Source: an uncultured Candidatus Saccharibacteria bacterium (GTDB taxonomy: Bacteria > Patescibacteriota > Minisyncoccia > Phycocordibacterales > JACOZG01). Taken from it: a stretch of DNA of 64,000 nt. The stretch is taken from positions 394,455 through 458,454 of the forward strand of contig OZ246403.1 in the NCBI GenBank assembly GCA_965230925.1, written 5' to 3'. Of the stretch, positions 40,004 through 56,274 are shown piece after piece. Position 1 is the first letter of the stretch. Each line of letters starts with the position of its first letter. Both the position numbers and the translations under genes were made by a program. The notes below the pieces were generated by a model, which worked only from the letters and a program-made list of their open reading frames with translations, made no database searches and was not told where the DNA came from.

Positions 40004-41110
40004 TTACCGATGCATGGGCATCACGAGGTAGGCGTAGGTGGAGTCGCCAACACCTGTTAATAAAACAGGCTTATTGGCTCCGTTAAATTTAAGGGAAATT
40101 TGTTCAGTACCAAGAATCGCTAATGCTTCAAGAAGATAACGGACATTAAAACTCATTTCAACCATGTCTCCAGTGAATACACCATCAATTGTAACCACAT
40201 TTTCTCCCACATCGGCATTTTTGGCTGTAATTTCAAACAATTTCTCATTTGGCACCAACCTACAATCCACCTGATTTAATTTATTAGCGAAGATATTAGC
40301 GAGTTTTAAGGCATCTATAAGTTCTGTTCGAGAGATAACTACTTCTGTTTTATGACTCGCCGGCATAATTTGCCGATAATCTGGATAAACCCCATCAATC
40401 AAACGAGAAATGAAGTATAAATTATCATCAGTAATCGTTAATTGATTTTTATTAAAAACAAAAACAATTTCTTCGTTTGCGTTTTCAAAAAGTCTCAAGA
40501 TCTCCAAGGCATTCTTCGCAGGAATAATAAGTTCGACACTTTTTTCTGACTTCCCTAATCCAATTAATTTTCTCTCAGCAAGACGGAAAGAGTCTGTTGC
40601 CACCAAGATTAGATCATTCTCATTCTGATAGAGATACACACTATTGATCTCTGGTTTAATCGCCGAACTCGCAGCAGAAAAAAACACTGATTTTAAGCCG
40701 TTTATTAAAAACTGACTGTTTATTTTTAGTAAACCTCCATGATCTGAAACCGCCGGAAGTGACGGGAAGTCAGCTACAGGATACCCCTTCAAAAGAGTTG
40801 TATGTTTAGTAGAAGAAATTTGAATATTATCGTTTACTAAATCCAATTTAACTTTTTCCTCTCGAGTTAAGTTGTTTAAGAAAGCCACCAAAGTGCCACC
40901 ATTAACTGCCACTACCCCTTCTTGATCAACTTTTGCTGGAACTTTAATTTCCACACCAACCTCAAGATTAGTGGCACGAATAAATAAGGTTTTATCTTTT
41001 GCTTCGATTAAAACATTTGAGAGAATTGGTAAGGAAAGATTTTTTCCAGTTAAGCGCTCAGCTTGAGCCACTGCTCCCTTTAATTTTTCTTTTAAGCATT
41101 CTACTTTCAT
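40004..41110 (-). CDS. dnaN: DNA polymerase III beta sliding clamp
   Basis: MKVECLKEKL... three-domain ~368 aa clamp downstream of dnaA. Confidence 0.9.
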   Translation of the reverse strand: MKVECLKEKLKGAVAQAERLTGKNLSLPILSNVLIEAKDKTLFIRATNLEVGVEIKVPAKVDQEGVVAVNGGTLVAFLNNLTREEKVKLDLVNDNIQISSTKHTTLLKGYPVADFPSLPAVSDHGGLLKINSQFLINGLKSVFFSAASSAIKPEINSVYLYQNENDLILVATDSFRLAERKLIGLGKSEKSVELIIPAKNALEILRLFENANEEIVFVFNKNQLTITDDNLYFISRLIDGVYPDYRQIMPASHKTEVVISRTELIDALKLANIFANKLNQVDCRLVPNEKLFEITAKNADVGENVVTIDGVFTGDMVEMSFNVRYLLEALAILGTEQISLKFNGANKPVLLTGVGDSTYAYLVMPMHR

Positions 41111-41316
41111 ATTATTTTTTCTTAATTAATACAAGAAGTGATAATAGTTCTGGGGAAAAGTGGATTGTCTCTGAAATACATTGATAGTTCCACTGTTTTT
41201 ACTTGGTAGGACTTGGGGAAAAACATACCACTGTCTTTTTGTCTTTTACTCATTAATATCTTTTTATAATTTTCTTTCACAATTTATTCTCAACTTATTC
41301 CCTAGTTATTCACAGT
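41111..41316. other. Candidate oriC (dnaA-dnaN intergenic): AT-rich unwinding stretches plus DnaA-box-like repeats
   Basis: TTATTCACA (41306-41314; complement TGTGAATAA, 1 mismatch to TGTGGATAA) and three weaker TTATTC boxes at 11-bp spacing (41284, 41295, 41306, 41317). AT-rich runs at 41111-41135 and 41250-41290. Confidence 0.55.
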
Positions 41317-42708
41317 TTATTCAGTGTAAAGTCGGGCTCTAATTTGATCAATCTCTTCAACTAAACCTTGGTCGTTTTTTAAATCATGATTAATTTTATC
41401 GAAAGCGTGAATAACTGTAGTGTGGTCGCGACCTCCGAGTTTTTGGCCAATGTAAGGGTAAGAACTATTGAAGTCTTGGCGTAAGATATACATAATCACC
41501 TGCCTTGGTTTTACTACTTCTTTTTTGCGAGTTTTCTCATAGAGTGATTTTTCTTCAATATTATAGAAATCAGCCACAATTGTTGTGAGGTTTTTAATAG
41601 AAACATTCTTTTTGGGTTTGATACTACTCTTCAGGAGATTTTTTATCTCAATGAGGGTTAAATCACGTTTTTTTACATACGCTTGGCAAATAATCGCATT
41701 CAAGGCGCCCTCAAGCTCTCTAATATTATCTTGAACTGAGGAGGCTACGTATTCCAAAATATCTCCATGTAGAGAAAAACCAACCTGTTTGAGTTTTGAT
41801 TGGAGAATAGCTAAACGTGATTCATATTCTGGTTTACTGACACCAATCATCATCCCCCCTTCAAGCCGGGAACGAACACGTTCTTCAAGATTAGGGATCA
41901 ATTTAGGAGCCTTATCGGAAGAAAAGATAATTTGTTTGTTGTTTTCTTGGAAACTGTTGAATAAATGGAATAATTCCTCCTGGGTTTTATCTTTATTAGA
42001 GAGAAATTGCACATCGTCAAGGATTAAAAGGTCGTATTTTCGGTACTTTTCCTTGAAAACAAGAGCTTTGTTGTTTAAAACAGAGTTAACATAGTCATTC
42101 GAGAACCGTTCGGCGGTGATATAAAAGACTTTTTTATTCTGCCCTGCTTGTTTGAAATGATTTCCTACAGCCTGAATAAGGTGAGTTTTCCCCAACCCTG
42201 TTCCCCCGTGGATAAACAAAGGGTTATAACTCTTACCTGGGTTCTTAAGAACCGCTTGAGTGGCAGCATATGCCAACTCATTAAAGGAACCAACAATAAA
42301 AGAGTCAAAAAGGTACTTAGGATTTAAGTTATCCTCTTTATTGATATAGAGTTCGTTAAGACCCAAACCACCAGGAAGGATAGGTTTGTCGTAATATTCA
42401 GCCTTTTCTGCTCTTTTTTCCTCATTTCTCTGGATAATATACTCCAATCCCCTGATTTCTGGGGATAAATCACGAAGAGTTTTGACAATAAAACGATGAT
42501 ACTTGTTTGTTAACCAGTCTTTAACGAAAGTGTTCGGTACTCCTAGGTACACAACCCCTGAATCTTGCTTTACTACTCCAGTATTTTTGAACCAAGTGCC
42601 AAAATTTGCCTTGGAAATGTTTAACTCGATGATACCGAGAACGTCCTCCCAAAGTTTTTTGCTCTCAATCATCGGCACCAGTATATGCTTCTCGGTAAAA
42701 GTCGCCAA
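41317..42708 (-). CDS. dnaA: Chromosomal replication initiator DnaA
   Basis: AAA+ Walker A GGTGLGKTHL, Walker B LLILDDVQF, sensor/DnaA signature, C-terminal HTH. Confidence 0.95.
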   Translation of the reverse strand: MATFTEKHILVPMIESKKLWEDVLGIIELNISKANFGTWFKNTGVVKQDSGVVYLGVPNTFVKDWLTNKYHRFIVKTLRDLSPEIRGLEYIIQRNEEKRAEKAEYYDKPILPGGLGLNELYINKEDNLNPKYLFDSFIVGSFNELAYAATQAVLKNPGKSYNPLFIHGGTGLGKTHLIQAVGNHFKQAGQNKKVFYITAERFSNDYVNSVLNNKALVFKEKYRKYDLLILDDVQFLSNKDKTQEELFHLFNSFQENNKQIIFSSDKAPKLIPNLEERVRSRLEGGMMIGVSKPEYESRLAILQSKLKQVGFSLHGDILEYVASSVQDNIRELEGALNAIICQAYVKKRDLTLIEIKNLLKSSIKPKKNVSIKNLTTIVADFYNIEEKSLYEKTRKKEVVKPRQVIMYILRQDFNSSYPYIGQKLGGRDHTTVIHAFDKINHDLKNDQGLVEEIDQIRARLYTE

Positions 42709-43997: not shown

Positions 43998-45167
43998 ATC
44001 TAAGCGATTTTTAAAGAAAACCAGGGTTTCGGTGGGATTTAGCATTAATTCCACGGCGTCGAGGGTTATACCACTCTCTAGACCGTAGCTTTTTTGCCAT
44101 ACCAGTCTTGTTTCGCCTGTCTCGGCGTTTATCCACCAGAGACTGTCATCAAAAGTTTTTTCCCCTCGATACCATTCATCAGGATAATTTCCGGCCGGTA
44201 AATTAGTGGGCACGGCACAATAGAGACTCAGTTTGTTTTTAGTCCAAACACATTTCTCAGCTATGGTTTCAAGGGAAATAAGTGAATTATCCTTTGTGAT
44301 TAAGTCAAAAAGGTACAGTCTCAACCCTTTTCCTACGCTCTCACTATAGACAATCTTTTTACCATCTGGGCTTACTAGAGTATTTAGACCTAAAATACCC
44401 CCTAAAACTTTTGTCCAAGCATTACTTTCGGGGTTTAAAAAGTAGAGTGATCCAGGGAGATTAGACGCTGGTTTAGTGAGGAAGCCAAGGGTTTTTTCTT
44501 CAGGCCAAGTGACCAGCCATTCGGTTAAAGGTGAAGAAACAACTTCTTTTTCTGTGCCACCGGCCCAGTTTCTTACTGTGCCTACGGTGTTACTCCCTGT
44601 TTTTTCTAGGGTAAAGAGTTTGTTTCCACTCGGTGAGGCAACAATTTGAGTAATAGAGTCATTGAGTGGTTGATTGTTGGCAAGGAGAAGATTGTGTCTG
44701 GTGTTTTCTTCCTCATAACTTACTGCTGTAAAGGTAGTACTTGCAGTGTGACCCCAAGCGACACTCATGACGCCGGGTAAGGTGGTGTTGGTAAACCGAG
44801 TGGTTTCTTCTGTCTCTAAATCACGGAAATAAATATGACCGGTCGATTTTTCCATATAAGCAAGCACGGTGCTACTGGCTTGAGAAAAGATACTAAAACC
44901 ACTAATAGGCGAATTAACCACTTTAACCAGGCGACCACCAAAACTTTGATTAATTACCTGATCAGTCGGTGTTTCTGTGCCTACATTGCCTTCGTCTGTT
45001 GTATCAATTGGCTTTGCACCACCTTCATCTATGGGAAAAAATTCATCCACTGTTTCAGTGGGGGTTGGTGTTTCCCCATTATCTCGCTCAAAGTAGAAAA
45101 AGAGGCCTAATAAAAAGCCAAGAGCGGCTATGACGAGAATAATAATGATGAGAATTTTTTGACTCAT
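43968..45167 (-). CDS. Membrane-anchored beta-propeller protein (TolB/PD40-like repeats); last gene of the T4SS-like operon
   Basis: N-terminal TM (ILIIIILVIAALGFLLGLFFYF), acidic linker, repeated SPDGKK-type blades. Confidence 0.45.
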   Translation of the reverse strand: MSQKILIIIILVIAALGFLLGLFFYFERDNGETPTPTETVDEFFPIDEGGAKPIDTTDEGNVGTETPTDQVINQSFGGRLVKVVNSPISGFSIFSQASSTVLAYMEKSTGHIYFRDLETEETTRFTNTTLPGVMSVAWGHTASTTFTAVSYEEENTRHNLLLANNQPLNDSITQIVASPSGNKLFTLEKTGSNTVGTVRNWAGGTEKEVVSSPLTEWLVTWPEEKTLGFLTKPASNLPGSLYFLNPESNAWTKVLGGILGLNTLVSPDGKKIVYSESVGKGLRLYLFDLITKDNSLISLETIAEKCVWTKNKLSLYCAVPTNLPAGNYPDEWYRGEKTFDDSLWWINAETGETRLVWQKSYGLESGITLDAVELMLNPTETLVFFKNRLDSSLWALTLE

Positions 45168-45583
45168 TGATCTTCTTGTTGATTTACTGGTTGATTTGAT
45201 TCGAGACTAAAGTTAACTCGCACTAACTCAGGATTAATTTGGCGCAAGAGAATATAAGCAGCTAGAGCGAGAAGAAGACCCCAGAGCGCTTGAGTAATTC
45301 GCTCTTTTGAGCCACCTTTTACCCCTGGTACGCCACTGGCCGCGTATTTTACTCCTTCCCAAATAATGATGAGGATTCCCAAAAGCCCAATAAATCCAAT
45401 GGCTTTAGGAAAAAGATCGGTTAGATATTGAGCTAAATTCCCCACTTTTTCCTGCCCGGTAATTCCCGGCTCAAGTAGACATACGCCATCATTGTCTGAT
45501 TTACAGCCAGTTTGAGCATGCACAAAAGTTAAAAGAGGAATACTGAAGGCAAGAATAAGGCTAAAAATAAGGAGTTTTTTCAT
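45164..45583 (-). CDS. VirB2/TrbC-like pilin candidate (signal peptide + two hydrophobic helices)
   Basis: MKKLLIFSLILAFSIPLLTFVHA signal, then helices AIGFIGLLGILIIIW and ALWGLLLALAAYILL; 139 aa; overlaps neighbouring genes by 4 nt. Confidence 0.45.
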   Translation of the reverse strand: MKKLLIFSLILAFSIPLLTFVHAQTGCKSDNDGVCLLEPGITGQEKVGNLAQYLTDLFPKAIGFIGLLGILIIIWEGVKYAASGVPGVKGGSKERITQALWGLLLALAAYILLRQINPELVRVNFSLESNQPVNQQEDQ

Positions 45584-46357
45584 TTAGAAATTAAAATTAC
45601 TCCGGCCATATGTAATATTAAATTTATTAACCACCTTCTGCAGTATTTTGTTGGAATTCTTGGTGAGCAAACTCACTGTCACCTCCCCTGTTTCTCCAGC
45701 TGGTGCAGCAAAGGTGATGACTCTGCCACCTTCAGAACTTCCACGCGCCGGTTTATTATTCACTTGCCAGTCGAAGCTCACATTACCGCGAGTAAAGTCG
45801 CCCAGAGAGACAAAATACGGCTCAGCGAGCAGCATCACCTCCTTCTCGGTAAGCGCGAGGCTACTGCCGAGTGCGGCGCCATAATTCGCACCAGAGAGTG
45901 GTGAGAGTGGGTAAATCACTGCTTTTGGAGTAATTACGGGAATAGTGAGGCTTTTAGTGATCTCAGCGCCATTTCCATTACTTACTTTAACTGTGATTGT
46001 ATTACCTCCTACTGTGGCAGCTTGATAGGTTAAAGTATTTTTGCCGATTCCTGAGGAACCTGGGAGATTAAAATTATCTTTTTTCCAAGTATAGGTAAGG
46101 TTGTTGGGATTCATTCCGGGAAAGTCAGCAAGGGCGACCACTCTCACCTCACTCTCGGAGCTCACCTGACTGTGACCACGGTAAAAAGTTGGGGTGTATG
46201 TTCTTGCTTCAAAGAAAAGGTCAACCGAAGACGGGGTTTGAGCGGCCGCAACCGCAGAAAGCATTCCCATCAAGAGAAGTGGAAGTGCTGTCACACCAAA
46301 TTTCATAGCCTTTAGTTTATCACACCTCTCCTGGAGAGAGTTGAGGAGAACTTTCAT
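45584..46357 (-). CDS. Secreted beta-rich (Ig-like?) protein in the T4SS-like operon
   Basis: Signal peptide; Thr/Ser/Gly/Asn-rich beta-strand pattern. Confidence 0.4.
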   Translation of the reverse strand: MKVLLNSLQERCDKLKAMKFGVTALPLLLMGMLSAVAAAQTPSSVDLFFEARTYTPTFYRGHSQVSSESEVRVVALADFPGMNPNNLTYTWKKDNFNLPGSSGIGKNTLTYQAATVGGNTITVKVSNGNGAEITKSLTIPVITPKAVIYPLSPLSGANYGAALGSSLALTEKEVMLLAEPYFVSLGDFTRGNVSFDWQVNNKPARGSSEGGRVITFAAPAGETGEVTVSLLTKNSNKILQKVVNKFNITYGRSNFNF

Positions 46358-46781
46358 TGGACCGCTCTTCTCGGCGACGGTAAGGGTATGCTTTCCAATG
46401 TTTATCCCAACCCTTTCCTAACTTTTTGGTGTTTTTGGATAATTCTTTAATTTTTACCAGGAGTTTTTTGATTAAACGGTTGATCCACCAATTGGCGAGA
46501 GTGTTCCACGGGAGCATGGATATAAAGGGAACCATCCCTAGGAGAGCAGCAAAAGAAGAAATCAAAGCAATTTTAAGCTGGATAATACCTATGGAAACAC
46601 CAGATTTGGCAACGGCTTTTAAAATAGGCATATATTTGAAGATAAAAACCCCAAGCCAAATAAGCCAATAGATGGCATTAGTGACAACGTTTACGAAAGG
46701 AATTAAGTCTAAAAGGTCAAAAATAAAAGTTATTACCGCCATGGTAATTTGAAATTGTAGTGAAAGGCCGAGTGTTTGCAT
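46320..46781 (-). CDS. Polytopic small membrane protein (4 TM) with basic C-terminal tail
   Basis: Hydrophobic helices; tail KKLGKGWDKHWKAYPYRRREER. Confidence 0.4.
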   Translation of the reverse strand: MQTLGLSLQFQITMAVITFIFDLLDLIPFVNVVTNAIYWLIWLGVFIFKYMPILKAVAKSGVSIGIIQLKIALISSFAALLGMVPFISMLPWNTLANWWINRLIKKLLVKIKELSKNTKKLGKGWDKHWKAYPYRRREERSNESSPQLSPGEV

Positions 46782-46786
46782 GCTAA

Positions 46787-48592
46787 TTACCCTGTGGTCT
46801 CAAGATCTTGCTTCGCTTGTTTAATGGCGAGAATTTGGGAAGGATCTGAGGTAATAATCTGGTCTTCGGTATAGGAGGCAATGATTTTAATTGCTACGTG
46901 TTTGAGGCCAGCGAAGAAGATGCCCTCCCCCACATTGCTCTCAAGAAGCAAATACTTCTCTTCATCGGTGAGTTGAAAGGTTTTTTGGACCAGATCAATT
47001 GAGGCCGGAGATTGTTTTAGAAGTAATTGAAGTGAGGAGTTGGTGATAATCGGTAAACCATATTCCGAACGTAAGAAATCCCCTACATCTTGGGTAATTG
47101 TGGCGACGCCGAGATAATACTTACGACCGCGTTTTACGAGAGAAAACAAGAATGAAGCCGTGTCCGGCGCCTTCATCATCCACCAAGCCTCATCGATGAC
47201 GAGTAAACGTTTTTTTAGATTACGACGAATAGAATTCCAGATATTGTGCATTACGATGTACATCGCAACTGGCTTGAGCTCATCTTCCATGTCGCGGACC
47301 GAGAAAACGACAAACTTTTTATTAATATCAACGTTTGTTGGCTGATTAATGAAACCAGCCCAAGTACCTTGAGTGTATTTGAGAAGCCGTTGGGCAAGCG
47401 ATGCCCCACCTTCCATGCCGGCGAGCACTAGTTCCAGATCAGAGAGTAGTGGCGCCGGTTTACTGCTGAAATCGGAGCCCGGAGTAATATCCTTCAGGGC
47501 ATAGGTTTCCGTAATGGCGGCATCAATAATCGCATCTTCCTCGGTAGTAAGACCACCGAGCATAATTCGGAATAGGCCTACTAAGTTGATGATATTAGAG
47601 CGCAAAACATCGGCTGGTGACTCATCTTCGCGAGGGAAAGGCAGGTCGAAGGGATTAATGTGGTGTTCGGAAGTGAGAGAAATGTTGAAATAGCGCCCCC
47701 CGACTGCCTCAGCCAGGAATTCATACTCGCGCTCTGGGTCAATCACAATCACATCGGTGTCGAACATGAGAGAGCGCAAGACTTCTAGCTTGGTGGCGTA
47801 ACTTTTACCTGAACCCGACTTGGCAAAGATCACCGAATTGTAGTTCTCGAGACTAAAACGATCGAAAAGGACCAACGAAGAGTTGTGGCGGTTAATGCCA
47901 TAGAGAATCCCTTTATTTGAGGTTAAGTCGAAAGAAACAAAGGGAAACAGGCTCGAGAGTGGCGAAGAATTAAGCTTGTAATTGATATTAAGTTGATCAT
48001 TGGCGATCGGTAACACGCTTTTGAAACCCTCTTCTTGTTGGAAAAGAGCTGGTTTGAGATACACCAACTTAGCGTCGAGAATTGATTTAATTTCTCCCTC
48101 GATCTTATCGAGCTCATCCTCCGATTCGCCGTAAATGGTGATATAGAGACCAACATCGAAGATTTTTTCTCGAGCTTGTTGGAGGGCATCGCGGAGATTC
48201 TCAATATCTTCATAGGCGGTGTCGAGAATGGGGTCACGAACAATACCCCGAGCTTCTTTGAGATTAATCTGACTTTGCACCTCAGCCACCTTTTTCTCTA
48301 GTTGCCGCAGAGCGGTAGAGGTATCAATGGGGTGAACCACAATCGAGACGTCGAAGACCTTGTCGAGGTTGATCACTGGTGAGAACCAATCCCCCGCTAA
48401 GACGCGTGGGTAGGAGATCACAAAGAAGGTGCGAGCCATCTTGTCGCCCAGATTTAAGAGCCTGGGCGTAATTTTAAGCGCTGAGGGCGCAATAATGTCT
48501 TTGAGCTCGAGTACACCCAACTGATAAATATCTTTTGGGAGAATGGGGGCGAGCCCTGGCGCTTCTTTCTTATTTCGATTAAAGAATGACAT
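46787..48592 (-). CDS. VirB4/TrbE/CagE-family T4SS ATPase (ATPase domain only, 601 aa)
   Basis: Walker A FAKSGSGKSYATK, IDPEREY, Walker B RLLVIDEAWWMM, ATITQD; true ATG at 48592, 1 nt after the TAA of the upstream ORF. Confidence 0.85.
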   Translation of the reverse strand: MSFFNRNKKEAPGLAPILPKDIYQLGVLELKDIIAPSALKITPRLLNLGDKMARTFFVISYPRVLAGDWFSPVINLDKVFDVSIVVHPIDTSTALRQLEKKVAEVQSQINLKEARGIVRDPILDTAYEDIENLRDALQQAREKIFDVGLYITIYGESEDELDKIEGEIKSILDAKLVYLKPALFQQEEGFKSVLPIANDQLNINYKLNSSPLSSLFPFVSFDLTSNKGILYGINRHNSSLVLFDRFSLENYNSVIFAKSGSGKSYATKLEVLRSLMFDTDVIVIDPEREYEFLAEAVGGRYFNISLTSEHHINPFDLPFPREDESPADVLRSNIINLVGLFRIMLGGLTTEEDAIIDAAITETYALKDITPGSDFSSKPAPLLSDLELVLAGMEGGASLAQRLLKYTQGTWAGFINQPTNVDINKKFVVFSVRDMEDELKPVAMYIVMHNIWNSIRRNLKKRLLVIDEAWWMMKAPDTASFLFSLVKRGRKYYLGVATITQDVGDFLRSEYGLPIITNSSLQLLLKQSPASIDLVQKTFQLTDEEKYLLLESNVGEGIFFAGLKHVAIKIIASYTEDQIITSDPSQILAIKQAKQDLETTG

Positions 48593-48593
48593 A

Positions 48594-49235
48594 TTAGGCG
48601 GCGGTTGGGATCTCTGCTTCCCCAGGGTTAAAGATTTTGAAGAATAATTCGACCAGTTCCTCAGTCCCTAGCGGGATAGCGCGCACGCCGAAGCGGCTCA
48701 AACCTTGAATCACCACCGCGGCGCGCTGTTCAATTTGGGAGCGTCGTTCCTCGAATTTCTCGGTGGCGAGGTCGGCCGCGCTCTTGTTTGGATTTTTACC
48801 TGGCCAGAGACCAGAGAGAATCCCACCTTTCTTTAGATTTACCATGGCGGCGTCATATGGCACACAAACGAAAAAGGTTTTGGCCATCACGTCAGTAGAA
48901 TTGGTGAAATTACGGATAAATTCAATGTATTCTCGGGTTTGAACCTTAATTAATTCATTTGTCTGCTCTTTTTGTCTAGTTTCTAAGGTGGCAAGATAGG
49001 GCTTAATATCAAGCCGGCGGGACTGGATAAAGAGTTGGACGTGGAAATCGAGAGAATTAAGGAAATTTTGGTACTGGAGAATGATCGCTTCCTTCTCGTC
49101 CTCCGATTTTAGGGCGAAGTTGAGCGAAGAAACAATGAGAACTAGTCGGAGACCGCCATTTTTGAGCACCACGACCCCGTCGCGGATCTCTTTAATGGGA
49201 ACGAACTCTTGCGTTGCTTGCGAGGTTTCAGCCAT
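48594..49235 (-). CDS. Cytoplasmic protein, inferred to be the separately encoded N-terminal domain of VirB4
   Basis: 213 aa with no TM. Stop TAA-t-ATG coupling to the VirB4 ATPase ORF; 213+601 aa approximates a full-length VirB4 (~800 aa). Confidence 0.4.
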   Translation of the reverse strand: MAETSQATQEFVPIKEIRDGVVVLKNGGLRLVLIVSSLNFALKSEDEKEAIILQYQNFLNSLDFHVQLFIQSRRLDIKPYLATLETRQKEQTNELIKVQTREYIEFIRNFTNSTDVMAKTFFVCVPYDAAMVNLKKGGILSGLWPGKNPNKSAADLATEKFEERRSQIEQRAAVVIQGLSRFGVRAIPLGTEELVELFFKIFNPGEAEIPTAA

Positions 49236-49253
49236 CGGCCTTTATTATAACGG

Positions 49254-49664
49254 CTATTGAATTTTCTCCCTAATATCCAGGCTCCAGGATAATTCTTTCA
49301 GCTTACTCTTTGATAATTTGGGAATGGCTATACCTGGGGTTTGTTCACTACCAATTTTAATAGTGTCCCCTTGGTCGATTTTTTTCTCTTTTTTCTTCCA
49401 CACATAGAGTTTATGCGACCAGAAGTATCGCAGAGCGGACTCGGTCATGTTGATAAAAGGTCGGTTGTTGATCTTATAGAAGGCCAAGAGAAGGCCAAAA
49501 ATCACAAGCCCGGCCATGATTGGCCAAGCGAGGAACTTGGGGAGATAAGTATAAGCAACGAAGGCGCCACCAAGCGAGCCAGCCACGTAAACGAATTGCT
49601 TGAAGGTTAAGGGGCCAAAAATCTTGTCTTCAATCTCGATAAATTGAGGAACTTGGAAATTCAC
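49254..49664 (-). CDS. VirB3/PrgI-like 2-TM protein
   Basis: 136 aa, TM hairpin (YVAGSLGGAFVAYTYL / WPIMAGLVIFGLLLAFY), immediately upstream of VirB4. Confidence 0.45.
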   Translation of the reverse strand: MNFQVPQFIEIEDKIFGPLTFKQFVYVAGSLGGAFVAYTYLPKFLAWPIMAGLVIFGLLLAFYKINNRPFINMTESALRYFWSHKLYVWKKKEKKIDQGDTIKIGSEQTPGIAIPKLSKSKLKELSWSLDIREKIQ

Positions 49665-49679
49665 CCTTCTATTGTAGCG

Positions 49680-50186
49680 CTATTTAGAAATTTCGCGATA
49701 GGGATCGGGGGTGGAAGAGGGAGGATTAGAAGGAGTTTGTTGCGGTTGATCAAATTGCTTCTCGAGATCCACCTCTTCTCGCGGCACGCGGAACAATTTC
49801 GCCATTTTTTCCTCGAAAATGCTGCGACTGTCAGGGCTTGCACTCACTGCTGGACTTACTGCCGGCCTTTCCCCCGCATGAATTTTCTTCAGTGATTCTT
49901 GGATTTTTAGAAAGATTCCTTGGTTGACATCATTAGTGATAGCGTTAAGTTGGTCTGGTTGCAACGGTAATTCTTTGGCCAGGTTTTTTGTGAAGTCAGA
50001 TAATGGATTGATTCCGATTAGAACCAAAGCCGTTTGATCAGCTAGTACCCCTATTTCATCTAGGTGAAGATCGTACTTTAGGCCGATATCACCAATTGTC
50101 CCGTCAAGATCAAGGTCCCAGATGGCTGCCTGAATATCTTCGGGCAACTTAAGAAATTTTTCTAGTAATTGTTCGTTGTTGTTCAT
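49680..50186 (-). CDS. Acidic cytoplasmic hypothetical protein (T4SS-like operon)
   Basis: 168 aa, no TM, Pro/Ser-rich C-terminus. Confidence 0.35.
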   Translation of the reverse strand: MNNNEQLLEKFLKLPEDIQAAIWDLDLDGTIGDIGLKYDLHLDEIGVLADQTALVLIGINPLSDFTKNLAKELPLQPDQLNAITNDVNQGIFLKIQESLKKIHAGERPAVSPAVSASPDSRSIFEEKMAKLFRVPREEVDLEKQFDQPQQTPSNPPSSTPDPYREISK

Positions 50187-50191
50187 ATATT

Positions 50192-52504
50192 TTATTCCCC
50201 TTCGGGTTTCTTTTTTTCTTTTTCCCCTCCTTTATCTTCCCCCTCCTTTTTCTTTCCCTGTTCATCTATTTTTGCTTCCAAGGACTCAGTCTTGTCTAAT
50301 TGCTCCGCGGCTAAAATTAGGGCTTCTAAACGATCAGCTTCTAATTGGTTCCCAGCCCTTTCCGCGTCTTCTTTTTGTTTAGTCCAGGTTTTAATTTCAT
50401 TTTTTCTCTTATCTTTTTTCTCTTGAGTTTCTCTTGCCTCCCTAAGTTTCTTTTTCATCGGCTCTGGCATTTCCTCTTGTATACCTTCTACTACCTTACT
50501 TAATTTTTGATACTTCTTACCGGCTTTTTGCTGTCGAGCTTGAATTTCTTCAGGGGTGCCTGGGGCTTTTTCTATCTGCTTATCAAAGTTCCTTATTTGC
50601 CGTTTTATACCACGAACTTTTTGGACTTTTGCTATATTTTCTGGGAGCGCCTGAGCCACCGAGCTCATGCTTGGATAAGTGACGTCGTACCAATTCAAAT
50701 CCTCTCTATTTTTAGAAATAAAGTCTTCTTTTTCCTGTTCGATTTTTTCCTTTGATTTAACGTCCTTAGCTTTTTCTTCATAAGATTTTTTAAGTCCAGA
50801 CTCTAGTTTTAGTTTGTCTTCCACCTTCATTTTCTCATAAGCTCTCTGCTGAGCAATCTTACCACCAAAGATATTTCTCTTTCGGCCAAGAGCGGCTAGA
50901 TATTTGGCAACCAACTCAGGATCATCTTTGATCTCATCAGGAATTTTGGCGAGTTCATCAATCTTCTTGTCAAAACTCTTTTCTCCACCAAACTTTTCTT
51001 TAGAAATTGTGGAAGCAAATTTAGTTAGAGAGCCACCAATGATGGTCCGGTTGGCAATCTGATTCTTAGCCCAATCAGAAGTGGCAATTCTGCGACCTAA
51101 CCGCCCGACGGTGTTCGCACCAATAGTTCCCACTGCGCGTTGTCGCCATTTCTTACCGAGATCACTAGCATATTTCGCCCCATGAATACCAAATTGTACA
51201 GCAGCAATGAGGGAACCAACCATCAGGCCAATCACAATAATAAAGTTGATAAGCATGGCGCCTATTCCTGCAATACCAGCGGCTTGAGAATCAGCGGCGA
51301 TGCTCTGAATCGCACCTTGAGACATCACTTTAGTAGAAAGGAAGACGAAGAGGAGATAAATTGGAGCGAAGAATGAATATTTAATAAGCAAATTCCACCA
51401 CTTCGAGAAGTGGCCACTGAGCTTCGGCGTGGTGTAGGCGAGGAATGCCAAGGGCGAGAGAATAACCATAAAGATGAGAACAATCATGCGGATGAGGAGG
51501 AGTAAGCCCGCGGCGAGGAAGACGAAGGCCGTCACGAGCATCAGACTCACTGCACCAATGGCTTGAGCCAGTGTTTTACCCACGCCAGTGGCGGTGCCAG
51601 AGGGAGTGTCGAAGGCCCGTTGGAGATTGAGATGATTCATGAAGAGGCCGGTTACTCCCCCAATTTTGCCATCAGCACCACCAACAAGGGCTGAGTCATA
51701 GGTTTGCCCACTGCGATTCACTGACTGGAAGAATTGATACGATGCGATATTAGAGACATCGATAATGGCTCGGGCGAAGAAGGCGCTAAAGTTGATGAGA
51801 AAAGCGATAACAATGACATTCGCGATTAGTTTGTTTTTATTCCCAATTTCAAGATCAAGAATGAAGCCGATTGCCACATAGAGCAAAATGAAAATGAAGA
51901 AAATATTTGCGAAGTCGCGGAGAGCGCCCCAGGCGGCAGTAATTCCTGGTGAATCAAGGAGGGAGGCGAAGTTGTTAACGGTATAGTTGAGCGAATATTC
52001 GAAAACGGCAGCAGATAAATAGACTAAGAATCCAGCAATGTAGATAAGGAAGTTCCCTGCTCCCCCAACCATCTTTTCTGCGAAATAATTGATGTTCTTC
52101 CACGTTGCGCTCCATGATTCCTTGAGGAGACAACCTAAAGAGAGAGACGATAAAACTCCGTCACAGCCATCTTCGGGTTCATTGCCGCCACCTTTTCCTT
52201 GTAAGTCTTTAACTTGCTCACGAAGGGCGTTCATCTCATTCGTTAGCCTTATATATTCAGGAGAGCCTGGAGCGTGGTTGCTTCGTTGTCGACCCAACTC
52301 CCTTGTTTGCTCAGCTAATTGCCCAGCTTGGGTGTTAGCGGCATTGTTAGGGACAGTGTTGTCCTCAGGATACAGGGGTGGGGTTTCGTCCGGCCACCAG
52401 GTACTGAGTAAGTCATCAATGTATCCTGCATTGGTGTGGTGAACAGGCGCGACCAAAAAAGTTATGACAGACAGTAAGGTAAGAATGAAGAAAAACTTTT
52501 TCAT
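50192..52504 (-). CDS. VirB6/TrbL-like polytopic membrane protein with long K/E-rich coiled-coil C-terminal tail
   Basis: Signal peptide, ~120-aa ectodomain, at least 6 TM helices, then ~300 aa of highly charged KE-rich sequence. Confidence 0.55.
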   Translation of the reverse strand: MKKFFFILTLLSVITFLVAPVHHTNAGYIDDLLSTWWPDETPPLYPEDNTVPNNAANTQAGQLAEQTRELGRQRSNHAPGSPEYIRLTNEMNALREQVKDLQGKGGGNEPEDGCDGVLSSLSLGCLLKESWSATWKNINYFAEKMVGGAGNFLIYIAGFLVYLSAAVFEYSLNYTVNNFASLLDSPGITAAWGALRDFANIFFIFILLYVAIGFILDLEIGNKNKLIANVIVIAFLINFSAFFARAIIDVSNIASYQFFQSVNRSGQTYDSALVGGADGKIGGVTGLFMNHLNLQRAFDTPSGTATGVGKTLAQAIGAVSLMLVTAFVFLAAGLLLLIRMIVLIFMVILSPLAFLAYTTPKLSGHFSKWWNLLIKYSFFAPIYLLFVFLSTKVMSQGAIQSIAADSQAAGIAGIGAMLINFIIVIGLMVGSLIAAVQFGIHGAKYASDLGKKWRQRAVGTIGANTVGRLGRRIATSDWAKNQIANRTIIGGSLTKFASTISKEKFGGEKSFDKKIDELAKIPDEIKDDPELVAKYLAALGRKRNIFGGKIAQQRAYEKMKVEDKLKLESGLKKSYEEKAKDVKSKEKIEQEKEDFISKNREDLNWYDVTYPSMSSVAQALPENIAKVQKVRGIKRQIRNFDKQIEKAPGTPEEIQARQQKAGKKYQKLSKVVEGIQEEMPEPMKKKLREARETQEKKDKRKNEIKTWTKQKEDAERAGNQLEADRLEALILAAEQLDKTESLEAKIDEQGKKKEGEDKGGEKEKKKPEGE

Positions 52505-55500
52505 TAATTTCTTGTGATCGTCACTTCTTTGATCGTTTCTTGATCATTATCGCCGGTGCACTTGAGGATATAGGTCAGCTTGGGAGTGATCGAGAGGTAG
52601 ATAGCTCCCTCGCTTGTCCCGTAGGTGAAGGTGTAGCGCTTGAGCATTTGGGCGAGCGGTCCGGTGCCATTTTTTTCTAATTCGATCTTATTTTTTAAGA
52701 GTTCAATCACCTCGACCGGAGTTCTGTTGGTCGCAGACATCACCTCCAGAGTAATGTTTTGGCCAATTGTTAGGCGATAGATATCGAGAGCGAGCGCTCC
52801 TTGAGTTGGCTTGTATTCCACGCGATCGGCGAGGCGATTAGGAGTGAGGGTGTCAGATAATGTTTCTGTCGTGGCCACTCCAGCGCGAGTTCTGGTTAGT
52901 TCTGCCCGCATTTCTACCGGGTGAGAGATGGTGCGGAAGCCGTCATTATTTAACTTCTCGCCCGCTTTGGCCACGGTGGTGTCGGCTGTGCTTGAGATCC
53001 AATCATTGCCTGCCTCACATCGGTCGGCATTGGTGGTGTCCCAGATAATCCGGCTATCATCCTTTTGGCCGCCATTTACTTGGGCTAATGAGGGTGTTTC
53101 TGCTCTCATGTTTACGAAGACTGGGAGAATATCACCAAGGCCAATGCTGGTACCGAGCGAGCTTGTTCTCGTGCTGGGATCCTCATAATTATTTCTCCTG
53201 AGAAAGCCGCTATCCTTGTTTGGCCAACCAGCGTTCGGGCAAGGACCAGGACCAGGACAGGGGTCGGAACCATTATAAATACTGGGAGCCTTCTCAGCTT
53301 CAAAATAACCAGGAGCATCATCCAATCTGTCGGCGACATGCTCGAGTTCTCCTTTGGCTACGTCAAGCTTTGGATTCTGAACTGACACATCGACGGGAGT
53401 AAAAAAGATTTTCTTAGTTGCCTCCTCCGCTATGCCCGGCGCGAGCGTGGTGTCGTATCCACGACAAAGCCAGGTAGTTTTGTCTTCAAGCTCAACCTCG
53501 ACCCTGTTTTCTTGAGGGCATTCGTAACGGCCGAGAATGCCATTTCCGGCAGCAAGGTCAGCTTCTGCCCGCGCCAGGGCCTGTGCTCGGAGACTATTAA
53601 CTGCGTCTCTTGTTTTGAAGTAAACAGTAATAGGATTGATGAGAATAAGTTTCATCCACGATGTCCACCCACCACCCTCTTCAAAGCCGCCCGGGGAAGT
53701 AAATTGATCATATTGAGTTTTTGGTAAACCATCAGAAGCGATTTCCCCGGCAACAGTTTGCATTTCCTCAATCTCCAATTTTTCTCGAATATCTGGAACT
53801 AAGTGGTAAGTTTCTGGATCATCTTCTGCTAGAGTTTTTAGATCTTGCATGGATACTTTGAACTTTTCCTGGTCTCTTTGCTGAACAAATTGGTCAGGGT
53901 TTCTTGGCATGATAGATTGTCCATTTCCCTCACCCTCTACACCGAGCATTCCCGGAGACATACCAACGCCGGTATTAAGATCCTTTTTGATTTTTTCTAA
54001 GAAGGCGTGGAGACCACCGAGAGTATTTTTCTCAGCATTTGGTGTTGTGATTAATCTATTTTCCTCGTCCATTAATTGGATTCGCCTCATGGTCTTGAGG
54101 AAAGTACACGTTTGTATCTGAAGAATAGTCAGACGCTCGTTCAAGTCACGAGATTGTTCCTCGGTATTCAAAATTTTGTTTGTAGTCTTCGCATTTCCTT
54201 TGGATGTTGCTGCTATGCTAAAGATGCTACCTAATTCCGGTCCTACCTCAGCCACCGGGAACGCTGCGGCGCCACCACCCACGGTGCCGAAGCCGATGGC
54301 GGCCATTCCTTCCGCCACGAGTTGCTCCACAATTGGTGCCAAGATTGGACCAGCGAGTGGAATACCCTCTACCAATGATCCCGCGCCTGCGGCGACGCTG
54401 GCACCAATATTATTTTTCAGCCCCTGCATAATCTTGGATGCTTCAAGATTGTTGCTAGTGAGTTGTCCCGGACCCACTTGTTTTTCCACGGCCCCATTAG
54501 CGGCTCGTTCAACTCCTCCGTTTTGCAAATCCTGTTGGGCTCCAGTGCCTACTTCGCTCATGGCGCTTTCCATTGGTGCGCCGTCAGGGAAGGATGCTTG
54601 ATAATCCTCAAGACTCATTGAACCTTGACCAGGAATGGTGTTTTGGTCAGCGGTTAAGCGCATGCCATTGGCTTGAGCGATATCGTAATCAGAGGCTCGC
54701 ATCTGATTTGGCTGTAGTTGGCCCGCGGCGTCCAACTGATCGTACTGGGCATTTTCCAGTACCTCTAGTGTGGGCGGTGGTGGGTACACCGCGCTCCAGA
54801 GTCCATTGCCAAGGTTGCTAATACCGTCTGCCGCCACGCCACCAATCTCAAATGCTGTTCCGGTGATTCCATGCGCTAAGGGGTAGAAGGTGGCACCGAG
54901 CGTGGCATCAATAGTGTCGGCCAGAGTATTACCCAAGGTATCAATGGTGCTGCTAATCGGGTAAGCAATTGTAGCTACAGCAATATTGAGTTGTTGGTCG
55001 ATGGCATCGGTGATTGGATCAAGAAGAGCTTCATCGAAGGTGTCGATGGCATTCTCAAGCGCTTCAGTAGGAACAGCAATAGAATCAATAACTTTGTCGA
55101 TAGAGTTTTCGATCGAGTTATTGATCGGCTTCTCGATGGCACCCATCATGGCATCGGTCAGGCGGTTGATGTGTTTCGGATCAGTCATTGATTGCTCGAG
55201 CTCGAAGGAGAGACCGTCGATCATGTCCTCAAGAAGTTGGTCGGGGTCAAGATTCGCAAGCCAAAGGAGGAATTCCTTAGAGGCATCAAGTTGGGCAACG
55301 AGATTCTCAATAATTCTCTCGACATCTTTAAGGGTTGAAGGTACGGAAATGGCTCCAAAGAAAATTCCTAATAGGTCACCAAGAGGACCTAAACCCGCAA
55401 CAGGAGAAAAAGATTTTTTCAAGTTTTCTATGGCGGCCATAATGGCTATTTTTGTTCCTTCAATAGTGCCGCGCACATCCTCCACTTGATCCCGGACCAT

Positions 55501-56274
55501 CTCAGGGATTTGTTGAATCATGGTGTTGAGCTGGGCGCGGTAATAGGTCTCGATGGTTGGCCGAGCGGTTTTTCCAATCTCTAACTTAAAGGTGTCTTGG
55601 AGGGTGCGACGCAAGCCACCACTAATACCGCGAGAGGTGGCATTGCCTACGAAATCATCATTCAAAACATTTGGTAAAGTTTCCCGAACTGATGAGTCAA
55701 TTAACTTTTTAAATTGCCCCTCATTTTGTCGGTAGTATTCAGCGGTGAAGCCAGCGCGTCGATCAGCCTCCAGATTCTTGGCCAGAGTTTTAGGAAATTC
55801 TTCTCCCCAGCGGGTTTTGAAGCCCTCTTGGAATTCGTATTTAAGGTTTTCTTGGATATTAGTAGATGCCACACCCGCTGAGTCCCCGAGGGTATTAATA
55901 GTGTTGGGTAAGACTTCCAGGCCAAGCTTCTCGTTGACCCGGTTTTTGATCGGCTTGGTAATACCATCGGCGATGGCTCGGCCAGCGGATTTGTTTTTAC
56001 TCTTTTTTGATTCCGAAACACATTCCTCATAGTCACTCTTGCGAATTTTAGCTAAGCGATCGGCGCTTTGTTGGCTGGTGGCTTGTCCGGGTGGGGTGAG
56101 GCCAGAATACTTAGCATTGTTTGCGGCTGGGTTTGAGCCAGGAGGAGGCAGGGCTACGCTTGGCCCTCCGGCTGGAGCGGGAGTATTTTGGGCGCTTACC
56201 ATTGGCGTGACAATAATTCCCCAAATAATGAGGAAAATAATGACGCGCTTGGTGAAGTTTAATAATGTTTTCAT
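52504..56274 (-). CDS. Giant (1256 aa) secreted/surface protein of the T4SS-like operon
   Basis: Signal peptide (IIFLIIWGIIVTPMVSA), Pro/Ala/Gly linker, D/E-rich alpha-helical repeats, Gly/Ala-rich segment, Cys-containing C-terminal domain (CPGPGPCPNAGW). ATGA overlaps with both flanking genes. Confidence 0.5.
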   Translation of the reverse strand: MKTLLNFTKRVIIFLIIWGIIVTPMVSAQNTPAPAGGPSVALPPPGSNPAANNAKYSGLTPPGQATSQQSADRLAKIRKSDYEECVSESKKSKNKSAGRAIADGITKPIKNRVNEKLGLEVLPNTINTLGDSAGVASTNIQENLKYEFQEGFKTRWGEEFPKTLAKNLEADRRAGFTAEYYRQNEGQFKKLIDSSVRETLPNVLNDDFVGNATSRGISGGLRRTLQDTFKLEIGKTARPTIETYYRAQLNTMIQQIPEMVRDQVEDVRGTIEGTKIAIMAAIENLKKSFSPVAGLGPLGDLLGIFFGAISVPSTLKDVERIIENLVAQLDASKEFLLWLANLDPDQLLEDMIDGLSFELEQSMTDPKHINRLTDAMMGAIEKPINNSIENSIDKVIDSIAVPTEALENAIDTFDEALLDPITDAIDQQLNIAVATIAYPISSTIDTLGNTLADTIDATLGATFYPLAHGITGTAFEIGGVAADGISNLGNGLWSAVYPPPPTLEVLENAQYDQLDAAGQLQPNQMRASDYDIAQANGMRLTADQNTIPGQGSMSLEDYQASFPDGAPMESAMSEVGTGAQQDLQNGGVERAANGAVEKQVGPGQLTSNNLEASKIMQGLKNNIGASVAAGAGSLVEGIPLAGPILAPIVEQLVAEGMAAIGFGTVGGGAAAFPVAEVGPELGSIFSIAATSKGNAKTTNKILNTEEQSRDLNERLTILQIQTCTFLKTMRRIQLMDEENRLITTPNAEKNTLGGLHAFLEKIKKDLNTGVGMSPGMLGVEGEGNGQSIMPRNPDQFVQQRDQEKFKVSMQDLKTLAEDDPETYHLVPDIREKLEIEEMQTVAGEIASDGLPKTQYDQFTSPGGFEEGGGWTSWMKLILINPITVYFKTRDAVNSLRAQALARAEADLAAGNGILGRYECPQENRVEVELEDKTTWLCRGYDTTLAPGIAEEATKKIFFTPVDVSVQNPKLDVAKGELEHVADRLDDAPGYFEAEKAPSIYNGSDPCPGPGPCPNAGWPNKDSGFLRRNNYEDPSTRTSSLGTSIGLGDILPVFVNMRAETPSLAQVNGGQKDDSRIIWDTTNADRCEAGNDWISSTADTTVAKAGEKLNNDGFRTISHPVEMRAELTRTRAGVATTETLSDTLTPNRLADRVEYKPTQGALALDIYRLTIGQNITLEVMSATNRTPVEVIELLKNKIELEKNGTGPLAQMLKRYTFTYGTSEGAIYLSITPKLTYILKCTGDNDQETIKEVTITRN

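What the first reader, a model, noticed from the sequence alone, without database searches (positions are those of the whole stretch)
46787..49235. VirB4 ATPase split into two coupled ORFs (N-domain and ATPase domain encoded separately)
The 213-aa ORF (48594..49235) ends with TAA at 48594-48596. The ATPase ORF begins with a genuine ATG at 48592 in a different frame, giving the junction TAA-T-ATG. Together, 213 + 601 aa is the length of a canonical one-piece VirB4 (~800 aa), and the 601-aa part contains only the C-terminal RecA-like ATPase domain. The junction is clean in both frames, with a real stop, a real ATG and no frameshift needed, so a genuinely split VirB4 is more plausible than a sequencing error. 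A split VirB4 would be unusual; the N-domain normally anchors VirB4 to VirB3 and the membrane.
Basis: inference. Interest (0 to 1): 0.55.

Follow-up and report, generated by a model that had tools for sequence, protein, structure and literature searches.

The report
TrsD-like protein plus short VirB4
The secretion-system motor protein VirB4 really is encoded here as two adjacent genes, but this two-gene layout is the normal, already published arrangement in Patescibacteria and in some Gram-positive plasmids, so it is ordinary.

Summary
The junction is exactly as described: minus strand, ...GCC GCC TAA-T-ATG, with a 213-aa ORF (48594..49235) followed by a 601-aa ORF (46787..48592).

The split is genuine and old, not an error. 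In 78 related loci from other species genomes the two ORFs are separate. Spacers run from a 4-nt overlap to 42 nt, all three relative frames occur, and about 7 loci carry a whole inserted gene.

The 213-aa protein matches the first ~200 residues of one-piece VirB4 in sequence and predicted fold. It aligns to Myxococcus pYRE VirB4 residues 16-213, and its top 14 Foldseek hits are all R388 TrwK. The 601-aa protein continues colinearly from there.

The 601-aa protein keeps about 225 residues of the N-terminal domain, and its ATPase domain starts near residue 225.

The split is not unusual. The 213-aa protein is the TrsD-like / Pfam PF26593 "TraC-like" protein. A 2025 paper reports it as the most abundant type IV secretion component in Patescibacteria, usually next to virB4, with remote homology to the VirB4 N-terminus. 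Staphylococcal pSK41 (TrsD plus a 672-aa VirB4) breaks at the same point.

Verdict: real, explained, already known. Low interest.

The parts
48594..49235 (-). ORF-A, 213 aa. TrsD-like / Pfam PF26593 'TraC-like' protein, equivalent to the first ~200 residues of a one-piece VirB4 N-terminal domain. A soluble alpha/beta protein in the model.
   Evidence: NCBIfam matches to VirB4 N-termini (NF045975 positions 100-233/894, E 6e-10; NF045971 positions 2-102/752, E 8e-7) and to TrsD/TraD NF041427 (E 1e-4). PF26593 TraC-like is precomputed for it. BLASTP to residues 16-213 of the 858-aa Myxococcus pYRE VirB4, E 9e-13. AF2 pLDDT 90.8. The top 14 Foldseek PDB hits are all TrwK/VirB4.
48590..48596 (-). 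Gene junction TAA-T-ATG: stop of ORF-A, one spacer base, start of ORF-B.
   Evidence: In relatives the spacer varies from -4 to +42 nt, in all three relative frames.
46787..48592 (-). ORF-B, 601 aa. Short VirB4 ATPase lacking the first ~200 residues of the canonical protein.
   Evidence: NF045971 CD1110-family VirB4, 367.7 bits against a cutoff of 325, profile positions 185-733/752. TIGR00929 positions 255-725/792. Pfam P-loop_TraG, AAA_10 and DUF87. TrwK 300-735 aligns to residues 124-548.
47921..48592 (-). ORF-B residues 1-224: the retained second half of the VirB4 N-terminal domain.
   Evidence: Weak Pfam CagE_TrbE_VirB match (residues 124-195 to profile 122-196/204) and TraC_F_IV match (98-196 to 279-373/375). 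NF045971 alignment starts at residue 28. The ATPase domain only starts near residue 225.
46787..47920 (-). ORF-B residues 225-601: RecA-like C-terminal ATPase domain.
   Evidence: phmmer match to the 4AG5 VirB4 C-terminal domain, residues 225-582 to 7-389, E 1.9e-40.
47801..47824 (-). Walker A motif AKSGSGKS (ORF-B residues 257-264).
   Evidence: Read from the translation. G260, G262, K263 and S264 are invariant in alignment A4.
47189..47194 (-). Walker B acidic pair D467-E468, within LLVIDEAWW.
   Evidence: Read from the translation. D467 and E468 are invariant in A4.
49254..49664 (-). PrgI/VirB3-like small membrane protein, immediately upstream of ORF-A.
   Evidence: Pfam PF12666 PrgI, E 1.3e-10, 42.1 bits against a cutoff of 27. 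Same gene order in L084 and L085 and in pSK41.
49680..50186 (-). 168-aa protein of the operon with no family match.
   Evidence: No hit in Pfam or NCBIfam. Same neighbour in L084.
50192..52504 (-). 770-aa polytopic protein, VirB6/TrbL-like, with a long charged C-terminal tail.
   Evidence: Pfam TrbL E 5e-4, below the gathering score. The Pontibacillus locus has a 779-aa protein in the same position.
46320..46781 (-). 153-aa hydrophobic protein directly downstream of ORF-B.
   Evidence: ORF list. No family match. A 163-aa gene sits in the same position in L085.
45164..45583 (-). 139-aa candidate VirB2-like T4SS pilin.
   Evidence: Weak matches only: Pfam T4SS_pilin E 9e-4 and NCBIfam Mbov_0395 pilin-like E 1.4e-3. 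Both are below their cutoffs.

Best explanation
[quoted passage not shown] Gene A is a TrsD-like protein (Pfam 'TraC-like') that corresponds to the first ~200 residues of a one-piece VirB4 N-terminal domain. Gene B is a short VirB4 that starts where A ends. It carries the rest of the N-terminal domain (~225 aa) and then the RecA-like ATPase domain, with intact Walker A and Walker B motifs.

Shown here: homology, colinearity, and conservation of the split across many species, at the same breakpoint as the TrsD-TrsE pair of pSK41.

Inferred: the two polypeptides associate non-covalently to rebuild a complete VirB4 subunit. A would supply the membrane-proximal surface that, in the R388 structure, contacts VirB3 (here PrgI, encoded immediately upstream). 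The tight TAA-T-ATG junction would keep the two products in roughly equal amounts within one operon.
For: Junction and ORFs:
- Coordinates and junction are confirmed.

Colinearity with one-piece VirB4:
- A matches CD1110 profile positions 2-102 and B matches 185-733. A matches VirB4_plasma 100-233 and B matches 293-893.
- A aligns to residues 16-213, and B residues 96-527 to residues 309-750, of the 858-aa Myxococcus pYRE VirB4.
- A 797-aa fused Patescibacteria protein, P0156, has A at 5-212 and B at 226-796. It matches TIGR00929 VirB4_CagE in one stretch, 17-750 to 18-725/792.

Fold:
- The AF2 model of A has pLDDT 90.8.
- All 14 best PDB Foldseek hits are TrwK/VirB4 (E 4e-4 to 6e-3). The next hit has E 0.26.

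Conservation of the split:
- 78 of 79 species-level loci have separate ORFs, with spacers from -4 to +42 nt, all three frames (38/28/12), and about 7 loci with an inserted gene.
- All of the top 120 homologues of A are 208-231 aa, and all of the top 120 of B are 589-625 aa.
- 149 of the 150 best 50%-identity cluster representatives of A are stand-alone.

Same architecture and breakpoint elsewhere:
- Pontibacillus (274 + 621 aa), Halobacillus (TrsD 345 + 622 aa) and pSK41 (TrsD 227 + 672 aa). B residue 49 aligns with pSK41 TraE residue 53.

Literature:
- PMC12102498 reports 2,272 TrsD homologues in Patescibacteria, 1,664 of them next to VirB4. It notes remote homology to the VirB4 N-terminus and says the homologue is essential in Ca. 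Southlakia epibionticum.
- PMC12857230 states that VirB4 N-terminal domains contact VirB3 and VirB8 and anchor the ATPase in the membrane.
Against: - No tool here could test physical association of A with B or with PrgI. Complex formation is inferred from colinearity only.
- A evolves faster than B (median tblastn identity 59% against 77%).
- Many A homologues carry long low-complexity C-terminal tails, and whole genes can sit between A and B. A could therefore have some functional independence.
- The published survey says TrsD homologues of Gracilibacteria are not next to virB4.
- Neither A alone nor the A profile finds any PDB chain by sequence. The match to NF041427 TrsD is far below its curated cutoff (22 against 200 bits).
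- Foldseek output gives no target coordinates. Placement of A on the N-terminal part of TrwK rests on profile coordinates, not on the structural alignment.
Confidence: 0.85

Rival explanations
1. The split is a sequencing or assembly indel, or a recent pseudogenising frameshift, in an originally one-piece ~800-aa virB4 of this genome.
For: A one-base spacer between a stop and a start in different frames is what a 1-nt indel could produce. One fused 797-aa relative exists (P0156).
Against: 78 of 79 related species genomes have two ORFs, with different spacers and all three frame relationships. Each has a proper stop and nearly all have an ATG. Some have a whole gene between A and B. Identical A and B proteins are called on several independent contigs. 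The same breakpoint occurs in complete Bacillota plasmids.
Confidence: 0.01
2. A is an independent accessory or regulatory protein that only descends from a VirB4 N-terminus. B is a self-sufficient truncated VirB4, and A acts separately, for example as an adaptor to the membrane, to substrates or to pilins.
For: - A diverges faster than B.
- A homologues have variable C-terminal tails of up to ~230 extra residues.
- Genes are inserted between A and B in about 7 loci.
Against: - A and B cover non-overlapping, contiguous parts of one-piece VirB4 profiles. B therefore lacks what A has rather than duplicating it.
- A and B were adjacent in 79 of the 80 loci examined; the one exception, L076, has only ~70 bp of contig left downstream of A.
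- A natural fusion retains both parts in order.
- The A homologue is reported as essential, like virB4, in Southlakia.
Confidence: 0.12
3. A and B are joined at the translation level by programmed frameshifting or stop-codon bypass at TAA-T-ATG to give a one-piece VirB4.
For: Only the compact junction itself.
Against: No conserved junction sequence exists. Spacers, stop codons (TAA, TAG, TGA) and frame offsets all vary among relatives, and inserts of 420-540 bp occur. B has its own conserved ATG and N-terminal residues.
Confidence: 0.01

Closest known systems
TrsD homologue plus VirB4 of the Patescibacteria (CPR) chromosomal T4SS, as surveyed by Quinonero-Coronel et al. 2025 (PMC12102498)
   Same: - Same lineage: the nearest homologues are Paceibacterota, Vogelbacteria and Zambryskibacteria MAGs.
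- Same gene order, PrgI/VirB3 - TrsD-like - VirB4, with VirB6-like and pilin-like genes nearby.
- Same position next to dnaA.
- Same noted remote homology of TrsD to the VirB4 N-terminus.
   Different: Nothing substantive; this locus is an instance of that system. The paper treats TrsD as a separate component of unknown function. Beyond the passages I read, the analysis here adds three things: contiguous colinearity, the breakpoint shared with pSK41, and the fold match.
TrsD/TraD plus TrsE/TraE of staphylococcal plasmids pGO1/pSK41 (MPF_FATA subclass; NCBIfam NF041427)
   Same: - Gene order is small VirB3-like protein, then TrsD (227 aa), then short VirB4 (672 aa).
- B aligns with pSK41 TraE from residue 49 to residue 53 onward, E 7e-34, so the breakpoint is the same.
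- The A profile aligns over the whole length of TrsD (14-203 to 40-216).
   Different: - The A-TrsD similarity is very weak: hhalign E 5e-4 with probability 31%, and 22 bits against the NF041427 cutoff of 200.
- pSK41 is a conjugative plasmid with relaxase and coupling protein. This cluster is chromosomal and sits next to dnaA.
One-piece VirB4/TraC/TrwK ATPases (TIGR00929; R388 TrwK structures 7O41 and 8RTD; CD1110 family NF045971)
   Same: - B passes the curated CD1110-family threshold and has Walker A and B motifs.
- A has the fold of part of TrwK.
- A+B together cover the profiles end to end.
   Different: The protein is encoded as two polypeptides, broken inside the N-terminal domain at about profile position 190-215.
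VirB3-VirB4 fusion proteins of some Gram-negative systems (recalled from general knowledge, not tested here)
   Same: They show that gene boundaries around the VirB3 / VirB4 N-terminus module are evolutionarily plastic.
   Different: They are the opposite event, a fusion rather than a fission. Here PrgI/VirB3 remains a separate gene.

Membership tests
VirB4/TraC/CagE T4SS ATPase (ORF-B) | Score above a curated family threshold | tested here: met
   NF045971 conju_CD1110 gives 367.7 bits against a cutoff of 325, E 1.2e-109. It scores below the cutoffs of TIGR00929, TraC-F-type and VirB4_plasma, as expected for a distant and shortened member.
VirB4/TraC/CagE T4SS ATPase (ORF-B) | Walker A and Walker B NTP-binding motifs in a RecA-like C-terminal domain | tested here: met
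   AKSGSGKS at residues 257-264 and LLVIDEAWW with D467-E468. These residues are invariant in alignment A4. The C-terminal domain matches 4AG5 at E 1.9e-40.
VirB4/TraC/CagE T4SS ATPase (ORF-B) | Complete N-terminal domain (~400 aa) on the same polypeptide | tested here: not met
   B starts at about profile position 185 of 752 (NF045971) and position 255 of 792 (TIGR00929). The missing part is encoded by ORF-A.
TrsD/TraD family / Pfam PF26593 'TraC-like' (ORF-A) | Match to the family model | tested here: inconclusive
   PF26593 TraC-like is recorded for this exact protein and its homologues in the precomputed tables. The local Pfam copy returned no such hit. NF041427 TrsD gives only 22.2 bits against a cutoff of 200, E 1e-4. 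hhalign against pSK41 TrsD gives E 5e-4, probability 31%.
TrsD/TraD family / Pfam PF26593 'TraC-like' (ORF-A) | Stand-alone ~200-aa protein encoded between a VirB3-like gene and a short virB4 | tested here: met
   Window gene order. The same order occurs in 78 loci, L084, pSK41, and Pontibacillus and Halobacillus.
TrsD/TraD family / Pfam PF26593 'TraC-like' (ORF-A) | Homology to the N-terminal portion of VirB4 | tested here: met
   NCBIfam N-terminal matches. BLASTP to residues 16-213 of a one-piece VirB4, E 9e-13. Foldseek top 14 hits are all TrwK. Fused P0156 matches TIGR00929 from position 18.
Patescibacteria MPF_FATA-related chromosomal T4SS | VirB3/PrgI, VirB6 and VirB2-like pilin genes near virB4 | tested here: inconclusive
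   PrgI is clearly met (42 bits against 27). TrbL/VirB6 (E 5e-4) and T4SS_pilin (E 9e-4) fall below their gathering scores.
Patescibacteria MPF_FATA-related chromosomal T4SS | Chromosomal location near dnaA / the origin of replication | tested here: met
   dnaA lies at 41317..42708 (-) and dnaN at 40004..41110 (-), about 1.3 kb from the end of the cluster. This matches PMC12102498.
Patescibacteria MPF_FATA-related chromosomal T4SS | No relaxase associated with the cluster | not tested
   I did not scan the whole window for relaxase or coupling-protein genes.
Patescibacteria MPF_FATA-related chromosomal T4SS | Physical A-B(-PrgI) complex and requirement for secretion or epibiotic growth | not testable with these tools
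   Only a literature statement is available: the TrsD homologue is listed as essential in Ca. Southlakia epibionticum.

The most novel reading that the evidence does not exclude
Separating the first ~200 residues of VirB4 from the motor may be adaptive rather than neutral. The freed TrsD-like module evolves faster than the motor and often carries long disordered tails. It could act as an exchangeable adaptor that tunes how a highly conserved ATPase core docks onto fast-evolving membrane and pilin partners, or that gates its assembly, in an essential non-conjugative T4SS. The evidence here does not exclude this, but it does not specifically support it either.
Probability: 0.12. Interest if true: 0.4.

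Novelty: already known. Interest (0 to 1): 0.15.

Why it matters
The practical value is for annotation. ~210-aa "hypothetical proteins" upstream of ~600-aa "DUF87 / TraC" genes in Patescibacteria and some Bacillota plasmids should be read as the N-terminal piece of VirB4. The short VirB4 should not be called truncated or a pseudogene.

Biologically, the shared breakpoint with pSK41-type plasmids supports the published view that the Patescibacteria T4SS derives from monoderm (MPF_FATA) conjugation machinery. The layout also offers a natural "split protein" for dissecting what the first VirB4 N-terminal subdomain does. None of this is a new discovery.

Tried and rejected
1. Internal duplication. 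A short motif is shared by A (MAKTFFV) and the N-terminus of B (MARTFFV), and in a sub-significant BLAST segment (E 0.037) B residues 45-66 hit the A-like region of the fused Myxococcus protein. This suggested that the VirB4 N-terminal domain might be a tandem repeat split between its copies. Profile-profile comparison of A (alignment A1) with the B N-terminus (A2) found nothing (E 0.83). Rejected.

2. Structure of B. The AF2 model built on a shallow alignment (80% identity or more) gave pLDDT 48.9 and pTM 0.38. It is unusable, so no fold search was run on it.

3. Model of the fused protein P0156. I tried a mixed alignment of A and B homologues (A3). MAFFT stretched the partial sequences across the whole length, so the alignment was abandoned and no job was submitted.

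4. Sequence searches of the PDB with A and with the A profile found nothing relevant. Only the fold search worked.

6. The local Pfam scan finds no family for A or its homologues, although PF26593 is precomputed for them.

7. Shine-Dalgarno analysis to test translational coupling was uninformative. Strong SD motifs are almost absent upstream of both A (0 of 48) and B (3 of 78) in this lineage.

8. The literature phrase "split VirB4" returned no paper.

9. The main text of Guglielmini et al. 2014 does not mention TrsD by name. The statement about remote homology is therefore cited from the 2025 paper.

10. The pELF plasmid paper concerns an unrelated TraD.
Full report
**Observation.** On the minus strand the sequence reads ...GCC GCC TAA T ATG TCA TTC.... 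ORF-A (48594..49235, 213 aa) stops with TAA at 48596-48594. One base follows, then ORF-B (46787..48592, 601 aa) starts with ATG at 48592-48590 in another frame.

**What the two proteins are.** ORF-B is a VirB4-family ATPase.
- It exceeds the curated threshold of NCBIfam NF045971, the "VirB4-like conjugal transfer ATPase, CD1110 family" (367.7 bits against 325, profile positions 185-733 of 752).
- It also matches TIGR00929 VirB4_CagE at positions 255-725 of 792.
- Pfam gives P-loop_TraG, AAA_10 and DUF87.
- Against solved structures, residues 225-582 match the VirB4 C-terminal domain 4AG5 (E 1.9e-40), and residues 124-548 match TrwK residues 300-735.
- Walker A (AKSGSGKS, 257-264) and Walker B (D467-E468) are present and invariant among homologues.

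ORF-B is therefore not "only the RecA-like domain". About 225 residues precede that domain. They match the distal part of the VirB4 N-terminal domain, with weak Pfam hits to CagE_TrbE_VirB (profile 122-196/204) and TraC_F_IV (279-373/375).

ORF-A has no hit in the local Pfam copy. In NCBIfam it matches the N-terminal regions of one-piece VirB4 models: NF045975 positions 100-233 of 894 (E 6e-10) and NF045971 positions 2-102 of 752 (E 8e-7). It also matches the stand-alone TrsD/TraD family NF041427 (E 1e-4). The precomputed annotation for this exact protein and its relatives is Pfam PF26593 "TraC-like".

**Colinearity with one-piece VirB4.** The matches of A and B to every one-piece model are contiguous and do not overlap.
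- Against a real one-piece protein, the 858-aa "ATP-binding protein" of Myxococcus stipitatus plasmid pYRE, A aligns over its full length to residues 16-213 (E 9e-13). B residues 96-527 align to residues 309-750.
- Among the 150 best 50%-identity cluster representatives of A, one (P0156, 797 aa, from a Patescibacteria MAG) is a natural fusion. A lies at 5-212 (46% identity) and B at 226-796 (58% identity).
- P0156 matches the canonical VirB4_CagE model in a single stretch, 17-750 to 18-725/792.
- A therefore corresponds to roughly the first 200 positions of canonical VirB4.

**Fold.** An AlphaFold2 model of A, built on a 76-sequence alignment, is confident (mean pLDDT 90.8, pTM 0.80). In a Foldseek search of the PDB the 14 best hits are all TrwK/VirB4 chains of the R388 T4SS (E 4e-4 to 6e-3, probability 1.0, query TM 0.46-0.59). 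The next hit drops to E 0.26.

**Is the split real?** I fetched 80 loci from different species-level genomes and located both genes in each.
- In 78 of the 79 loci where B could be detected, A and B are separate intact ORFs.
- The spacer ranges from a 4-nt ATGA overlap to 42 nt.
- Stop codons are TAA, TAG or TGA.
- The relative frame offset is 1, 2 or 0 in 38, 28 and 12 loci.
- In about 7 loci a 420-540 bp insertion between A and B carries a TIGR02436 "four helix bundle protein" gene.

A single indel or a conserved recoding signal cannot produce this pattern. All 120 best homologues of A are 208-231 aa, and all 120 best homologues of B are 589-625 aa. The split is ancient and maintained.

**Beyond Patescibacteria.** tblastn of A against plasmids finds 54 records, mostly Bacillota megaplasmids.
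- Pontibacillus has pilin-like, VirB6-sized and small genes, then a 274-aa hypothetical protein, then a 621-aa "VirB4-like, CD1110 family" protein.
- Halobacillus has "TrsD" (345 aa) plus a DUF87 protein of 622 aa.
- Staphylococcal pSK41 has a VirB3-like gene, trsD (227 aa) and a 672-aa VirB4.
- B aligns with the pSK41 VirB4 starting at residue 49 against residue 53 (E 7e-34).
- The N-termini of the Pontibacillus and Halobacillus short VirB4s align with the start of B.
- The A profile aligns weakly but over the full length with pSK41 TrsD.

The breakpoint is therefore the same in all of them. This points to one old event shared by the Patescibacteria clade and a subset of MPF_FATA systems. The reverse is also possible: an ancestral two-gene state with later fusions.

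**Literature.** Quinonero-Coronel et al. 2025 (PMC12102498) describe the T4SS of Patescibacteria.
- TrsD was "the most abundant T4SS component", with 2,272 homologues, 1,664 of them associated with VirB4.
- It occurs otherwise only in the pGO1 subclass of MPF_FATA and has no assigned function.
- Its homologue is listed as essential in Ca. Southlakia epibionticum.
- They also note the location of the cluster near dnaA. Here dnaA lies at 41317..42708 and dnaN at 40004..41110, just beyond the cluster.

JGI already labels several A homologues "type IV secretory pathway VirB4 component". The finding is therefore an instance of a published, widespread arrangement.

**Mechanism.**
- Shown: A plus B equals a full VirB4 in sequence terms, and A has the fold of part of VirB4.
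- From established knowledge (review PMC12857230): VirB4 N-terminal domains link protomers, embed in or at the membrane, and contact VirB3 and VirB8.
- Inferred: A binds B non-covalently to complete the N-terminal domain, and it provides the surface for PrgI/VirB3, whose gene lies immediately upstream. The compact junction within a tightly packed operon favours co-expression.

I could not test complex formation. Shine-Dalgarno analysis was uninformative because the lineage hardly uses SD motifs.

**Points that leave room for some independence of A.**
- A diverges faster than B (median identity 59% against 77%).
- Variable low-complexity C-terminal tails occur in many homologues.
- Genes are inserted between A and B in some loci.
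- TrsD is unlinked to virB4 in Gracilibacteria, according to the paper.

**Dead ends.**
- A suspected internal duplication between A and the N-terminus of B was not supported.
- The AF2 model of B was too poor to use.
- A mixed alignment for modelling the fused protein was misaligned and dropped.
- PDB sequence searches with A found nothing.

**Verdict.** The split is genuine and A is VirB4-N-terminal-like. The arrangement is already known, and interest is low.

Noticed in passing
L013:4637-5087, L015:4637-5061, L037:811-1321, L063:1495-1979, L065:2972-3429, L069:4312-4757 (degraded copy in L017:4640-5139): In about 7 of 80 related genomes a 420-540 bp insertion sits exactly between the trsD-like gene and virB4. 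It encodes a 114-133 aa TIGR02436 'four helix bundle protein', the family known from 23S rRNA intervening sequences and related to DGR Avd. The inserted proteins differ strongly from one another, which suggests repeated independent insertions at this junction. The flanks look repeat-like but were not analysed.
   Followed up: partly
window 40004-42708 (-): dnaN (40004..41110) and dnaA (41317..42708) lie just beyond the end of the T4SS cluster. This matches the published observation that Patescibacteria T4SS genes sit near the replication origin. The fused-VirB4 locus L085 also has dnaA/dnaN and rnpA/yidC nearby.
   Followed up: partly
L085:544-2937 (protein P0156, GCA_964615945.1 contig CAZTUR010000004.1): This is the only one-piece (797 aa) VirB4 seen inside the Patescibacteria clade. 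The A tail and B head are replaced by a ~20-aa shorter linker (…NPATIEKRGEVIGRQGMGGVASIEDVVAP…). It could be a real secondary fusion or an assembly artefact. It is a single MAG contig.
   Followed up: partly
P0147, P0175, P0236 and about 35 others of the 150 representatives: Many TrsD-like homologues carry 80-230 extra C-terminal residues of low-complexity Pro/Ala/Thr/Gln-rich sequence. The C-terminus of the module is therefore free and tolerates long disordered tails.
   Followed up: no
window 46787-49235 compared with loci L001-L080: The short VirB4 is unusually conserved (80-91% identity among the top 120 database hits; median 77% across loci). The TrsD-like partner is much less so (58-73%; median 59%).
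   Followed up: partly
L075:4622-5163 and downstream: In this MAG the virB4 gene is broken. The first ~167 residues sit in one frame and the rest in another, which indicates a frameshift, a pseudogene or an assembly error.
   Followed up: no
window 52504-57119 (-): Two large ORFs at the head of the operon, 1256 aa (52504..56274) and 282 aa (56271..57119), have no Pfam match at E<=0.01. The 168-aa ORF (49680..50186) between the VirB6-like and PrgI genes has no match either. Their roles in the T4SS are unknown.
   Followed up: no
window 45164-57119 (-) and the A and B starts in L001-L080: Strong Shine-Dalgarno motifs are essentially absent upstream of genes in this operon and of the A and B genes in relatives (0 of 48 and 3 of 78). 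Genes are packed with overlaps or spacers of 1-20 nt.
   Followed up: partly
window 50192-52504 (-), C-terminal ~300 residues: The VirB6/TrbL-like protein has a long, highly charged Lys/Glu-rich C-terminal extension that looks like a coiled coil. The Pontibacillus plasmid has a protein of similar size (779 aa) in the same position.
   Followed up: no
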